Source: Octopus sinensis (Eukaryota). From it: a DNA stretch of 64,000 nucleotides. The notes under the pieces were generated by a model, which did no database searches, was not told the DNA's origin, and was given only the letters and a program-made list of their open reading frames with translations. Below are positions 30,045 through 62,135 of this stretch, one piece after another. The position numbers and the translations under genes were made by a program. Positions within the stretch are counted from its first letter, which is position 1. Every line of letters starts with the position of its first letter. The stretch lies in contig NC_042997.1 in assembly GCF_006345805.1 (NCBI RefSeq), positions 195,548,001 through 195,612,000 of the forward strand, in the 5' to 3' direction.

Positions 30045-30082
30045 GATTAGCGCTTTCCTCCAATCTGTGGGGTTTTCAAATC
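30045..30082 (-). ncRNA. Hammerhead motif, U3-A8 core variant
   Basis: Minus strand GAT-TTGAAAA-CCCC acagatt GGAG-GAA AGCGCT A-ATC; palindromic stem III. Confidence 0.6.
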
Positions 30083-30368
30083 AAATCAATTGTGGGGAGT
30101 TTGAACATATTATAGTTTCGTAGTAGTGCGGAGGAATAAGATATAGTACAAGAGGGTGAGGAGGAAGTGAGACAGAGAAAACATGTGTGGTATGTGTAGT
30201 GTGTGTGTGTTGTTGTGTGTATATATATGTGTGTGTGTGGTGTGTGTTGTGTGTGTGTGCGTTTATATCTGAGAGGGAAGAAGTGTTTATTTCCGTTGGT
30301 CTACTGGACCTCCTGTGGTTTATAAGAACTTGGCTCTGTCCATTTCGATGTCACTGAGTGTGTGTTGT

Positions 30369-30784
30369 GCAGAAACGTTAGCACACCGGGCGAAATGCTT
30401 AGCGGTATTTCGTCTGCCGAAGGCGGCGAGCTGGCACAGAAACGTTAGCACACCGGTCGAATGCTTAGCGGTATTGCGTCTGCGCAAGGCGGCGAGCTGG
30501 CAGAAACTTTAGCACACCGGGCGAAATGCTTAGCGGTATTTCGTCTGCCGAAGGCGGCGAGCTGGAGAAACGTTAGCACACCGGGCGAAATTCTTAGCGG
30601 TATTGCGTCTGTCGTTGCGTTTGAGTTCAAATTCCGCCGAGGTCGACTTGCCTTTCATCCTTTCGGTCGATAAATTTAAACAAATACCAGTTTCGCGCAC
30701 TGGGGTCGATGTATCGACCTTAATTCCTTTGTCTGTCCCTGTTTGTCCCCTCTATGTTTAGCCCCTTGTGGGCAATTAAGAAAC
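30369..30784 (+). mobile_element. S4 SINE with four tandem head repeats
   Basis: AGAAACGTTAGCACACCGGGCGAAATGCTTAGCGGTATT occurs four times, then core and tail A. Confidence 0.85.
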
Positions 30785-30974
30785 ATATATATATATATAG
30801 GAGTAAAATATGAAAAATCAACGAAAATGCATATTGCAAATAGAAAAAAGGCTATTTATGACAAGTAGTGACAAATATATACATTTAGATTGACTGAGGT
30901 AGTAATACGAGTCATGAAGGTCATTATTATGAGATGATTATAAGATGATAATAAAGTATGAGAACAAAACGCTT

Positions 30975-31295
30975 TGGCGGAGCGAAATTCCTGTCTGTCC
31001 AATATAGAGTTTACCACATCCTATGCATGTCATCACATAGATTACATTTGCCGAAGCGCAAGTGAAATTTGATTTGATCTTAAATATTTCTCCTTGTTTG
31101 AATTGGAATTCTGAACCCTCCAGAAGGTGGGGGCATGTTCCACAGTTACGACGTCCACATTTTGTCACTTTTGGCTCTGTAGTTTGTGGGTAAAGTCTAG
31201 CGCTGGTTAATATTCTTTTCAGTGACTTTGCTTGCTTTTTGCTTTTTTATAATTTTATATGAGCTTAAAATTCCGTTCATTGTTTTGTCTGCTGT
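30975..31295 (-). pseudogene. Penelope-like element GIY-YIG endonuclease fragment
   Basis: KSLKRILTSARL...KCGRRNCGTCPH...FTCASANVIYVMTCIGCGKLYIGQTG; VIY/YIG with a Cys-rich linker; one frameshift; truncated. Confidence 0.9.
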
Positions 31296-31348
31296 ATATA
31301 TATCCATATATATATATATATCCATATATATATATCCATATATATATG

Positions 31349-57890: not shown

Positions 57891-58493
57891 CCTTCTATAT
57901 AATATATATATATATATATATATCTATCTATCTATCTATCTATCTATCTATCTATCTATCTATCTATCTATCTATCTATCTATCTAAGTATAAGCATATT
58001 AAAAAGGGTCCGTGGGAAAACTCATTTAAATAAGAGGGGTCTTTCGTAGTAAAATGGTTGGGAACCGCTGCCATAGACCCAAGATTCATCACATGTTATG
58101 ACTGTTTTCAAAAAGATTTCGTCTTGCTCGACACAATTAAGGAGATCCGATCTTCTTTTTGAGATGAGCGCCCTCTACACACTTTATTTCCAAGTACTGA
58201 TATAAAAAACAGAAGATTGATAGATAGATAGATAGATAGAGATAGAGAGAGAGAGAGAGAGAGAGAGAGAAAGAAAGAGAGAAAGAACGTTATAACTTCG
58301 TGTGTATGCACGACAGAGGTCAAAATCAACCTGTGCAGCTTCATTCTGCGCACTTGAGCTCCGTTACCATAGCAACAGTCCCGATACATTTTGATCAGAC
58401 ATCATATGGATGGGTCATGGTTGGAGTATCAATCACATCGTTGTGTTTTTGCATCTTTTGATGTTGGATCTGACTCACAGTTTGAAAACTATT

Positions 58494-58851
58494 TACTAGG
58501 TCTGATAAGTATCCGGCCTGTTGTCATAGTAACGAAGCTAAAGCACGCAGAGTTAAACCGCTTGGCACAGATTGAACGATGAACTCTTTTTGAAAACCTT
58601 TTTGCCAAGCTTTTGGCAAAATTTGATGTAGATTCACTGCTCAACCTTCTGTCATGGTCAGTGCGACGATCACACGCTACACACGTTACTTCCAATCACT
58701 GCTGTAAGCAGCACAAGTAAGCTAGAACGTTAAAACTTAGTGCGCATGCTCAGTAGAGTTCAGGGTCGATCTGTGCCAAGCGGCTTTACTCTGCGTGTTT
58801 CAGCTTCGTTACTATGGCAACAGCCCATATATTTATTGATCAGATCACGTA
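58494..58851. mobile_element. Mariner-type MITE with ~95-bp TIRs
   Basis: TA termini; CATAGTAACGAAGCT...CCGCTTGGCACAGAT inverted at both ends; an older solo TIR at ~58305-58405. Confidence 0.88.
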
Positions 58852-59329
58852 AGTACCCAAAACGACATGGTTCCAAAGAGATATTCTTAACGAAACATCT
58901 GTGTCTCTAGCTATGAAATGTAAAATGTGGTGGATCTCCGTTGTTCAACGACGAGGATTCAGCTGAATTTCCTCCTCTTTATGTGACGCGTATGCGGCAG
59001 CTGATCAGTCTGCAAGCATACGTATTCTTAACATAATTCTTGGACAGAATCGGCGTGACATGGTGTGTAACATGGCCACAATTACACGGTATGTGACATG
59101 GCTTCGATTATAAGTACAATCCTTGTGACGGGTTTTTATACAGATTCCGTCTACTGAATTTAGCTCACACTGTATGAAGCTTTCTGGGGCTATAGAAAAA
59201 TGACACGTTCCAAAATTCCAGGATCTCACGGTTGCGATGCAGACTTCTTAACCACGCAGTCATTCTTGCGTCTACGAAGATATATAATATGAAATATAAA
59301 TTGGCGGTTATTTAATATTGTTAGGGGGT

Positions 59330-60367
59330 TCTCGGAATTGAATTAAAAAAGTCACATGAAATATAAATCCCCAATTATTGTATTGTGTCATGAGTAAGAT
59401 ATTTACAAAAAAGAAGACCCTCTTATATGGGTTCAATGTGATGACGGAAGTCATAGAAAAATAGGAATGTCAGGATTATACGAAAAACGAAACAAAAGAT
59501 ATAGCATTCAATCCTGTGAAAGAAATATTGCATCACCTCACCCTTTGAATAATTCAACATTCTACATTCCTTTGAATAATCCGGATTTTATTATTCCTGA
59601 AAATTTTAATTTATATAATGTTTATATTGCTTTAAAATTATGAATGCTTTACAATCCATTCGTTTATATAGAGAACTAAGATGATCACGTATGGGGTTTT
59701 CTTTTTGTAAACTACACCTCATGTTGAACACAATGCAACAGTTGTAGATTTATGTTTTATGAAATTAAAAATTATTTATATTTACTTCCTAATCATCTCC
59801 TGTATTTTCAACATCCTGTGACCCGTTGCCTATTTGTTTTTATCGTTATATTTTTCATCTTATCAAGCATTATTCACCGTTCAATCTATAAACTACATCC
59901 TTTTTTGTTATTGTACTAGTCTCATGATTTTTGTCCTTGCTTATATATATATATATATATATATCATTCGCTCGTTTATGCCCCAGTAGCTATACTGCTG
60001 GAAGATGTCGAAATTGTAATGAGATTTGATCGACAACTGATGAAGGATGAGCTTGTCTGCGTCTCTCGGAATTTAATTAAAAAGAGAAATGGAAAAAAAA
60101 ATATACATTAAGTCACATGAAATATAAATCCCCAATTACTGTATTGTGTCACGAGTAAGATATCATTTACAAAGAAAGGACTCTCTTATATGGGTTCAAT
60201 CTGGTGATGGAAGTCATAGAAATGTAGGAATGTCATGATTTTACGAAAAACGAAACGAAACAAAACATATTGCATTCAATCTTTTGAAAGAAATATTGAA
60301 TCACCTCATCCTTTGAATAATTCAACATTCTACTTTCTCTTGAATAATCAGGATTTTAATATTCCTT
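59330..60367. repeat. Diverged ~280-300-bp direct repeat pair
   Basis: 59330-59598 versus 60063-60367 (AAGTCACATGAAATATAAATCCCCAATTA...TTGAATAATTCAACATTCTAC). Confidence 0.9.
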
Positions 60368-61200
60368 AATATGCAATAACTCAGGTCTGTGTTGAAGTTT
60401 AGGAAATTCAACTGATAAAGAATTTTACATCACAAACTCTTATAGAACCTTTAAACCTTTGACAATCTATTTTTGCGCGATTTTTGGCATGAGGTTTCAG
60501 CTGTTCTGCTTCTACTCATGTCATTCCAGTATCTTTCAGAGACAGCACTGGTCGTTCGGTTCCAAGCTGCTGAGCTGTAGAAGAGAAATAATTAGTTTGG
60601 CTAAAAGTCAATGTATCTCCATATGAACATTCGCAAAAATATCTTCTCACACACAACCAAACACACAGAGACACGCACAAACCTAAACATGTATATTAAT
60701 AATATCTCTGTCTGTCTTTCTGACTATTAATATTCTCCCTCTCACGTGCAAACATTCAAATATACATATGTAAGTATATATTTATATGTGTGTATTTGTA
60801 TGTATTTGTACACACACACAAACACGCACGCACACACTCACACAAACACACACAAACACACAAACAAGCACACACACACATTCTTTTAATTTTTTAACCT
60901 TTTACTTGTTTCAGTCATGTGATTGCGGCCATGCTGGGGCATCGCCTTGAAGAATTTTTCTCGAAAGGATCGGCCTTAGTACTTTTGTTAAAGTCTGGTA
61001 CTTATTCTATGAGTCCCTTTTGGCGAACCGCTTGGTTAAGAGGACGTAAACACACTGACACCGGTGGGGGTGACAGACGCAGACAAAAAGACACGCACAC
61101 ACAAGCACACACGCGCGCACACACACGCACACACACGCGCGCACACACGCGCACACAAATATGCACACACACACACACACACGGATACTCATATATGTTC

Positions 61201-62135
61201 TTTTGTTTAGGTCATTTGACTGCGGCCATGCTGGAGCACCGCCAAACATGGGTTTATTCGAAGAAATCGCCCCCAGGACATACTCTTTGTAAGCCTAGTA
61301 CTTATTCTATCGCCTCTTCTGTCGAACTGCTAAGTTACGGGGACATAAACACGCCAGCAGCAGTTGTCAAGCGATGGCGGGATGACAAACAAACAAACAG
61401 ACACACACACACAAATATATATATATAAAACGTCAAGGTAGAAAATACTAAAATAATTTTATAAAAAACATTTTAGTACCGGTTTCGGTCATTGAGACTT
61501 TTTCAACTCTAAGAATGGGAACCAATTAAATTTTGGAAAAATTAAATGAAAAGCTTTTTAAAACCGTATTTGTATAGTATTCAAGCACAAGGGAATTTTT
61601 CTTGTTTCTGCTTGTCTCTGTCTTGTTTACTCTTGTAGGTTCGAGGTCCCGGACCGGGCTGCGTGTTGTGTTCTTGAGCAAGACACTTTGTTTCAAGTTG
61701 CTCCAGTTCATTCAGCTGTAGAAATGAGTTGCGACGTCACAGGTGCCCCTTTGCCTTTCCCTTGGGTAACATTGATGGCATGGAGAGGGGAGGCTGGTAT
61801 GCATGGGCAACTGCTGGTCTTCCATAAAAGCAACCCTGGGTTGTACGTTCGCCGGTGAGGCGACTTTCCGCTCAGACTTGTACCCCGGAGGGGAACCTCT
61901 TAGGTGTACCCATGGTCGTTCGTGACCAACAGAGTCGTGTTTTATATATATATATATACATATATATATACAACGGGCTTCTTTCAGTTTCCGTCTACGA
62001 AACCCACTCAGAAGGATTTGGTCGGCTCGAGGCTATAGTAGAAGATACTGGCCGAAGGTTCCACTCAGAGGGGCTGAACCCGAAACCCTGTGGCTGGGAA
62101 GCAAGCTTCTTACCACATAGCCACACCTACAGCTA
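61201..62135 (-). mobile_element. S3 SINE split by an HHR island (61428-61635) and an S2 SINE (61636-61935)
   Basis: Tail 61201-61415, head 61972-62135. Confidence 0.75.
61475..61508 (-). ncRNA. Hammerhead motif, U3-A8 variant
   Basis: Minus strand AG-TTGAAAA-AGTC tcaat GACC-GAA ACCGGT A-CT. Confidence 0.65.

What the first reader, a model, noticed from the sequence alone, without database searches (positions are those of the whole stretch)
30045..61508. Compensatory U3-A8 hammerhead cores in at least three unrelated families
Seen: cores TTGAAAA (30045 minus, 48893 plus, 61475 minus) and TTGACAA (48432 minus), each followed by stem II and a GAAA-palindrome-UA arm (GAAT in the decayed 48893 copy). 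Established: C3-G8 is a Watson-Crick pair in the active HHR fold, and U3-A8 restores the pairing. Inference: the double change implies selection for catalysis, and CUGANGA-based searches would miss these families.
Basis: partly seen in the sequence, partly recalled or inferred. Interest (0 to 1): 0.75.

Follow-up and report, generated by a model that had tools for sequence, protein, structure and literature searches.

The report
Penelope hammerheads swapping a core pair
The four motifs are the ends of three families of Penelope-type jumping genes whose hammerhead-shaped RNA has an already published U-A swap of a core base pair, and related families in the same genome carry G-C and U·G versions, which suggests the predicted self-cutting fold is still favoured, although cutting is untested.

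Summary
All four motifs are type I minimal-hammerhead folds with a U3-A8 core. They are truncated terminal repeats (pLTRs) of three Penelope-like retrotransposon families (A twice, B, C), each traced to RT/GIY-YIG coding DNA elsewhere in the genome. U3-A8 is not new: about 1,300 were reported in Schistosoma Penelope elements (PMC4209133).

One descriptor gives 7,153 U3-A8 matches genome-wide, 385 U3·G8, and 442 with C3 (about 62% G8). The families are related, not unrelated; an RT tree needs at least two switches (AU p=0.037).

U3·G8 is an amplified state (40 of 100 in a sister family of B), so a stepwise wobble route is open. Mismatched C3·A8 reaches 19 of 100 in an old superfamily.

It belongs to a family with about 8,000 matches that I could not find in print, though three key papers were unavailable. 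This scan already noted U3-A8, G3-C8 and U·G on other DNA of this genome. Cleavage is untested.

The parts
30041..30086 (-). Family B type I minimal hammerhead, U3-A8 core at 30079-30073, GCGC loop III, predicted cut after A17 at 30048; this copy has a damaged stem II
29985..30370 (-). Family B pLTR fragment, 91% identical over 391 columns to the 3' pLTR of a full-length element (L091) with RT and GIY-YIG
48432..48476 (-). Family C hammerhead, U3-A8 core at 48470-48464, 6-bp stem I, U·U at 10.1/11.1, CCGG loop III; matches the family majority
48336..48766 (-). Family C pLTR fragment, 97% identical to the end of L096, which has RT and endonuclease homology about 2.3 kb upstream
48888..48927 (+). 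Family A hammerhead, decayed copy (GAAU for GAAA, stem II change), U3-A8 core at 48893-48899
48760..49052 (+). Family A pLTR fragment, back to back with the family C fragment
   Evidence: 78% to L101, 72-74% to L224
61471..61512 (-). Family A hammerhead, U3-A8 core at 61506-61500, CCGG loop III; stem I and base of stem II damaged in this copy
61415..61647 (-). Family A pLTR fragment
   Evidence: 85% to L101 over 242 columns
12465..12515 (+).
12443..12597 (+). Family D short element without an ORF (about 190-250 nt genome-wide; inverted pairs, one-sided tail, (TA)n flank)
30980..31261 (-). Fragment of another Penelope-like element's GIY-YIG region (40% to the family B protein); no hammerhead found with it

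Best explanation
The four motifs are U3-A8 minimal type I hammerhead folds in truncated terminal repeats of three related Penelope-like retrotransposon families, and they likely act as slow, dimer- or protein-assisted self-cleaving RNAs in active parent elements, while most dispersed copies, including three of the four here, are decayed. Shown: fold, family state, link to RT/GIY-YIG coding DNA, copy counts, and at least two switches of the 3-8 pair on the RT tree. Inferred: the palindromic loop III pairs between two copies to build helix III. Any Watson-Crick or wobble 3-8 pair likely holds the general-acid ribose at position 8 in place, so lineages move C-G to U·G to U-A by single transitions, and one lineage fixed G-C. 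Selection is probably for a weak but functional fold, and is not absolute.
For: Family states: U3-A8 in 35 of 39 (A), 32 of 33 (B) and 46 of 46 (C) fetched copies; G3-C8 in 57 of 59 (D). Element link: L091 has two B motifs 5.16 kb apart flanking 385-aa and 751-aa ORFs, with RVT_1 at E=1e-8 and GIY-YIG at E=0.004, the latter below Pfam's cut-off. L224 (A2, close to A) has an open 748-aa frame with RVT_1 and GIY-YIG at E=3e-4, also just below cut-off. L096 (C) has RVT_1. A CX4CX2C linker is present in B and A2. Genome counts for one descriptor: U3-A8 7,153 (reversed control 37), U3·G8 385 (24), C3 with A or G at 8 442 (47), of which 62 of 100 listed were G8 and 38 A8 (hand tally). RT tree of 12 rows: 2 changes, U3-A8 monophyly rejected at AU p=0.037, B/F nested among C3-G8 families. 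In a homologous superfamily (155 matches, 100 listed, hand tally), C8 occurred 17 times and always with G3; 73 were pyrimidine-3/purine-8 and 20 purine-3/pyrimidine-8. With positions 3, 7 and 8 masked, the 22 G3-C8 rows form one side of a branch (73/86) that holds old and young subfamilies in which N7 varies. Loop III palindromes of A, B and C self-pair at -8.3 kcal/mol. Literature: U3-A8 and dimer-dependent low activity of min-HHRs (PMC4209133, parts 1-2 of 4 read); G3-C8 double mutant partly rescues a Penelope hammerhead, which is protein-assisted (PMC11167929, passages).
Against: No cleavage data. In family F (sister of B; 286 matches) 40 of 100 listed are U3·G8, 59 U3-A8 and 1 C3·A8, so the double change is not required. 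In the old D2 superfamily 19 of 100 are mismatched C3·A8, mixed with U3-A8 on the tree (7 changes); one core form with that mismatch recurs in many copies. A pairwise scan of a type III hammerhead found that only G3-C8 rescued (PMC9901934, passages). In the anole element, hammerhead mutants did not affect insertion in vitro, and no RNA-seq reads ended at the cut site. B, C and F have mismatches at 10.1/11.1 and short or broken stem I. Monomer MFE folds of the four window copies do not give the hammerhead shape. D has the UUU triplet and a weak helix III (-0.2 kcal/mol), with a 10-bp competing duplex that takes in A13, A14 and U17 (-3.8). The tree has no outgroup and only one locus each for E2 and E4, the B/F branch has 81/72 support, and I had seen a similar tree before running the AU test.
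Confidence: 0.68

Rival explanations
1. The fold is a relic. The hammerheads are inherited but dispensable for spread, U3-A8 arose by A/T-biased transitions through the neutral U·G state, and it became common because a few master copies amplified.
For: Both changes are C>T or G>A transitions in a window of 28-46% GC. U3·G8 is amplified. C3·A8 is frequent in D2. Hammerhead mutants did not block insertion in vitro. Naiads spread without canonical hammerheads (PMC8557442, passages). The counts are dominated by a few families.
Against: G3-C8 needs two transversions, yet C8 never appeared without G3 in the 100 rows, and it persists across old and young subfamilies while N7 drifts. Stems change between families while staying paired (for example U-A versus C-G in stem II of F versus B, and D versus D2). 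The A2 family, which has an open RT-endonuclease frame, keeps identical motifs at both ends in 4 of 4 loci, apart from one loop II change.
Confidence: 0.2
2. The structure is under selection, but as a binding or positioning fold for the Penelope protein (or for RNA dimer formation) rather than for cleavage, so 3-8 pairing is kept for shape only.
For: Published min-HHR activity is low. The anole hammerhead cuts only with protein, and uncleaved RNA is the main substrate. These families tolerate 10.1/11.1 mismatches and a U17 site. Many D copies begin about 25 nt upstream of the core and end far beyond the predicted cut, not at it.
Against: The catalytic letters G12, A13, A14 and the NUH triplet are kept in all families followed, although my descriptors also required them. 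No binding data exist here.
Confidence: 0.1
3. The motifs are chance matches in A/T-rich repeat DNA.
For: UUGAAAA and GAAA are common words in this window.
Against: 1 of 40 shuffles gave one hit against 3 observed; 7,153 genome matches against 37 for the reversed pattern; position in the pLTRs of coding elements.
Confidence: 0.02

Closest known systems
Minimal type I hammerheads in pLTRs of metazoan Penelope-like elements, including the U3-A8 variant of Schistosoma mansoni Cercyon elements (Cervera and De la Pena 2014, PMC4209133; main text parts 1-2 of 4, and supplement file 2 part 2 of 3 plus search passages read; file 1 was not searchable)
   Same: Type I topology, short stem I, palindromic helix III, place in pLTRs, mostly single or inverted truncated copies. 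The S. mansoni(4) row has the same UUGAAAA core as families A and B. A Saccoglossus row has U3·G8.
   Different: Here U3-A8 outnumbers C3-G8 about 26-fold under my descriptor (7,153 versus an estimated 274), where S. mansoni had about 1,300 versus 2,000. B, C and F lack the bulge plus G10.1-C11.1 and have a mismatch there. I saw no G3-C8 row in the alignment rows shown.
Natural U3-A8 hammerheads from metagenomes and phages (Perreault et al. 2011, PMC3088659; section 8 and passages read; 11 supplements searched with no hit for the terms)
   Same: Same covariation. The paper also reports a U10.1·U11.1 mismatch, as in family C, and cites in vitro activity of 3-8 exchanges.
   Different: Those examples are not described there as retrotransposon termini; G3-C8 is not mentioned as natural in the section read.
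Neptune/Nematis-type EN+ Penelope-like elements (as described in PMC8557442, passages)
   Same: RT followed by a C-terminal GIY-YIG, CX2-5CxxC linker, inverted truncated copies, one-sided tail, (TA)n flanks.
   Different: Clade not assigned: no reference Neptune, Nematis or Poseidon proteins were in my tree.
Engineered G3-C8 hammerheads (PMC11167929 and PMC9901934, passages; PMC3884650, passages)
   Same: The same swap as family D, and it rescues cleavage in vitro.
   Different: Those are laboratory mutants. Family D is a natural family with about 8,000 pattern matches.

Membership tests
Type I minimal hammerhead (PLE min-HHR) | Core N3-U4-G5-A6-N7-N8-A9 and G12-A13-A14 with a paired 3-8 | tested here: met
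   U3-A8 in A, B, C and G3-C8 in D; the canonical letters C3-G8 are absent, but U3-A8 is a published variant
Type I minimal hammerhead (PLE min-HHR) | A15.1-U16.1 and an NUH cleavage triplet | tested here: met
   GUA (A, C), CUA (B), UUU (D); lost in the window copy 48893
Type I minimal hammerhead (PLE min-HHR) | Palindromic helix/loop III allowing dimers | tested here: met
   ACCGGU, AGCGCU, AAUAUU; self-duplex -8.3, -8.3 and -0.2 kcal/mol. The old D2 and D4 subfamilies have non-palindromic loops
Type I minimal hammerhead (PLE min-HHR) | Stems I and II paired | tested here: met
   Stem I 3-7 bp and stem II 4-5 bp in intact copies; weak in B and F
Type I minimal hammerhead (PLE min-HHR) | Extra nucleotide after A9 and G10.1-C11.1 (consensus trait in PMC4209133) | tested here: inconclusive
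   Met in D. A2 has G-C without a bulge; A has A-U; B, C and F have C·A, U·U and C·C. The C3-G8 family E also has U·U
Type I minimal hammerhead (PLE min-HHR) | Site-specific self-cleavage | not testable with these tools
   Needs an assay; only assembled contigs were available
EN+ Penelope-like element | RT with a C-terminal GIY-YIG endonuclease | tested here: met
   B (L091) and A2 (L224): RVT_1 above cut-off, GIY-YIG just below cut-off. A and C by tblastn over the RT and EN regions
EN+ Penelope-like element | pLTRs flanking the ORF, inverted truncated copies, tail | tested here: met
   Direct pair in L091; inverted pairs in L223-L226; tail and inverted pairs in D
EN+ Penelope-like element | Family D linked to a coding element | tested here: inconclusive
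   No linked RT in 30 D loci, in 8 longer stretches or in 20 nine-kb stretches of the superfamily; 4 of those 20 had RT hits, none of which I could tie to the motif
Neptune or Nematis clade | CX2-5CxxC linker and RT phylogeny with references | tested here: inconclusive
   Linker present in B and A2; no reference proteins in the tree

The most novel reading that the evidence does not exclude
In this genome the textbook hammerhead core is the minority. Penelope elements have sampled C-G, U·G, U-A and G-C at the 3-8 pair. The roughly 7,000-copy family D is the first natural, catalytically active G3-C8 hammerhead, and U·G subfamilies are functional stepping stones. That would show in nature that the pair is selected for geometry and not for base identity, and it would mean CUGANGA screens undercount animal ribozymes many-fold.
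Probability: 0.3. Interest if true: 0.6.

Novelty: new variant of a known kind. Interest (0 to 1): 0.38.

Why it matters
The finding as posed (U3-A8) is a new member of a published variant. The added value is a natural series of 3-8 states (C-G, U·G, U-A, G-C and a mismatch) in related retroelements of one genome. It allows a direct test of an open question: whether Penelope hammerheads must cleave, or only fold, for the element to spread. It also shows that descriptors fixed on CUGANGA, as used for the core search in PMC8557442, can miss most motifs in such a genome.

Tried and rejected
Rfam scan: only microsatellite-driven miRNA hits among the 150 of 255 shown.

A broad C3-G8 pattern gave 2,853 matches. 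Most of the 100 listed were one repeat with no stem II whose flanks pair as a plain hairpin; I rejected it as a hammerhead and narrowed the descriptor to CCGG/GCGC-type loops. That descriptor excludes other loop types, so genome-wide C3-G8 is undercounted.

Three of the 11 non-G3-C8 rows were fetched as possible D variants, along with one further row. One locus (two rows) was unrelated DNA; the others led to the D2 superfamily.

Search for a coding partner of D failed.

RT pieces at L087, L193, L230b, L092 and L244 were left out of the final tree because they could not be tied to a motif. Duplicate rows of the same families (L095, L103, L223, L225, L200, L098, L083) and short rows (L233, L181, window) were also left out. 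Three rows were dropped from the DNA tree.

Expression: no RNA holder listed. The runs laid are contigs that are guessed to be RNA, so say nothing on expression or cut ends. One search hid 95 variant rows, so I draw nothing on positions 3 and 8 from it.

Papers not held: PMC1986816 (Przybilski and Hammann 2007), PMC4447102 (Martick and Scott 2006) and PMC5785218 (Lunse et al.). The Lunse paper could already report G3-C8. Searches for a natural G3-C8 found only laboratory mutants; searches added nothing. In the bioRxiv preprint 2026.07.22.740005 the one passage found was not relevant, and its supplements were not seen. Passages of PMC6765202, PMC6155905 and PMC7151607 named no natural G3-C8.
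Full report
Observation. The four sites are present. A structure scan of both strands with positions 3 and 8 left free returned exactly these four folds, all U3-A8, with position 3 at 30079(-), 48470(-), 48893(+) and 61506(-). A second descriptor allowing the bulge after A9 recovered three of them and added a clean G3-C8 fold at 12472(+). One of 40 local dinucleotide shuffles gave a single comparable U3-A8 hit. The 48470 copy equals its family majority; the other three are damaged.

What they belong to. The window is G000:C1:195548001-195612000 in a 2.72-Gb genome. 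Its repeats look cephalopod-like (recalled, not tested; earlier scan notes say octopus). Each motif is a dispersed repeat, with 1,590, 673 and 1,535 first-look candidates, of which 40 each were scored. 48893 and 61506 are one family (A), so there are three families. U3-A8 is the family state in 35 of 39, 32 of 33 and 46 of 46 fetched copies (these are the best-scoring copies and lean toward the query). Family B flanks a full element in L091: two motifs 5.16 kb apart around 385-aa and 751-aa ORFs, with RVT_1 (E=1e-8) and GIY-YIG (E=0.004, below cut-off). Family C lies about 2.3 kb downstream of RT/EN homology in L096, and two more C loci carry pieces 89-98% identical to it. Family A has decayed RT/EN upstream in L100, L101 and L103, and its relative A2 has an open 748-aa RT-endonuclease frame. 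B and A2 have the CX4CX2C linker that PMC8557442 ascribes to Neptune and Nematis elements (passages). The window copies are 230-430-nt pLTR fragments.

Is U3-A8 known? Yes. PMC4209133 reports 'U3-A8 instead of C3-G8' in Cercyon elements of Schistosoma mansoni, with about 1,300 hits. Its supplement lists a Penelope-linked row with the same UUGAAAA core and a Saccoglossus row with U3·G8. PMC3088659 reports natural U3-A8 covariation and cites prior in vitro activity; the cited paper was not held. [quoted passage not shown]

With one descriptor (core, 10-20 nt, GAAA, SCGS loop, UA), the genome has 7,153 U3-A8 matches (reversed control 37), 385 U3·G8 (24) and 442 C3 with a purine at 8 (47). Of the last, 62 of 100 listed were C3-G8 and 38 were C3·A8 (hand tally), which gives about 274 and 168. 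So doubles far outnumber singles overall, but these are copy numbers of a few families. Most listed C3·A8 rows carry the stem II of U3-A8 families and look like decay. U3·G8 is different. In family F, a sister of B (RT 78-85% identical), 286 matches gave 59 U3-A8, 40 U3·G8, 1 C3·A8 and 0 C3-G8 among 100 listed, far above the 1-6% per-site divergence measured in families A-D. On a small tree of 30 copies, the five G8 copies with complete upstream sequence sit between two A8 subgroups (weak support). The wobble state was therefore propagated, and the route C-G to U·G to U-A needs only two single transitions. That lowers the weight of the double change as proof of selection.

Are the families independent? 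On an RT/EN tree of 12 rows (336 columns, no outgroup), A, A2 and C form one side (100/100). B and F lie on the other side, nested among the C3-G8 families E, E2 and E4. Two changes are needed, 0% of 200 bootstrap trees join the U3-A8 rows, and the AU test gives p=0.037. I had seen a similar tree first, E2 and E4 rest on one locus each, and direction cannot be read without a root. At least two switches are supported, not three.

G3-C8. The motif at 12472 has a 7-bp stem I, the typical bulge with G10.1-C11.1, and an AUAU palindrome. A family pattern with positions 3, 7 and 8 free gave 8,064 matches (control 11), and 89 of 100 listed were G3-C8. The element is about 190-250 nt, has no ORF, and occurs as inverted pairs with a one-sided tail of about 60 nt and (TA)n flanks, as Penelope insertions do. 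No coding partner was found. Twenty runs from five coded organisms hold part of it. In the four runs laid, no variant of 10% or more was listed at positions 3 or 8. An older homologous superfamily (155 matches) showed, of 100 listed, U-A 32, C·A 19, G-C 17, U·G 17, C-G 5 and others 10. C8 never occurred without G3. With the three positions masked, 22 G3-C8 rows (17 of the 60 fetched, plus 5 D copies; 3 rows dropped) form one side of a branch (73/86). Twelve of 14 U·G rows group (99/90), but C·A and U-A rows are intermixed. The G-C swap needs two transversions and is the one shown to rescue activity in the laboratory, so it is the best sign of selection on pairing. The frequent C·A mismatch is the best sign against a strict requirement. 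D also has the UUU triplet (recalled as slow) and a competing duplex. Searches found no natural G3-C8 in print, but three key papers were not held.

Mechanism. Shown: the fold, its place and its distribution. From the literature: min-HHRs are inactive as monomers and weakly active as dimers, and an anole Penelope hammerhead is protein-assisted and dispensable for insertion in vitro. Inferred: two motifs in a tandem transcript pair their palindromes (-8.3 kcal/mol for A, B and C), the 3-8 pair positions the ribose at 8, and the RNA is cut after A17 to trim or circularise the element RNA. I put this at 0.68, a neutral relic at 0.2 and a non-cleaving protein-binding fold at 0.1.

Verdict. The U3-A8 core is a published variant in the same class of element, and the inference is only partly supported. 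The less known part is the four-state series, with an amplified U·G state and a large G3-C8 family. Earlier notes of this scan reported the same on other DNA of this genome and in other genomes. I read them after reaching these results; they are not independent support. Interest 0.38.

Noticed in passing
window 48336-49052: A family C pLTR fragment (minus) abuts a family A pLTR fragment (plus) back to back at 48760-48766, which suggests one Penelope end inserted at another's.
   Followed up: no
window 53542-53816: A near-perfect inverted repeat of about 275 nt (scored as a MIR7533 look-alike, below threshold), probably a foldback or MITE-like element.
   Followed up: no
window 28023-29025, 41493-41875, 473-727: 294-nt arms, 97% complementary, 415 nt apart, with further copies elsewhere in the window.
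   Followed up: no
window 6335-8152, 26637-27003, 38768-39134 and others: A dispersed repeat of about 184 nt, often in tandem pairs, with at least 14 copies of its core (D14/D17/D18); SINE-like.
   Followed up: no
L135-L164 (G000:C1): A very common repeat contains CUGAAGA...GAAA GGCC UC but has no stem II, and its flanks pair as a long hairpin; it is a false positive for canonical hammerhead patterns.
   Followed up: partly
rows, e.g. L235, L236, L238, L239: A second family (stem II GUUCG/CGAAC) recurs with U3·G8 and a CpG at positions 7-8, whose decay would give U3-A8; no RT was found in the five stretches fetched.
   Followed up: partly
L113:1517-2200: Four head-to-tail copies of the G3-C8 element, about 170 nt apart, a layout that would allow dimers.
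   Followed up: no
L251-L279: An old D2 subfamily has the core C-U-G-A-G-A-A (C3·A8 mismatch) in many copies; a one-base register shift pairing C3 with G7 is conceivable but untested.
   Followed up: partly
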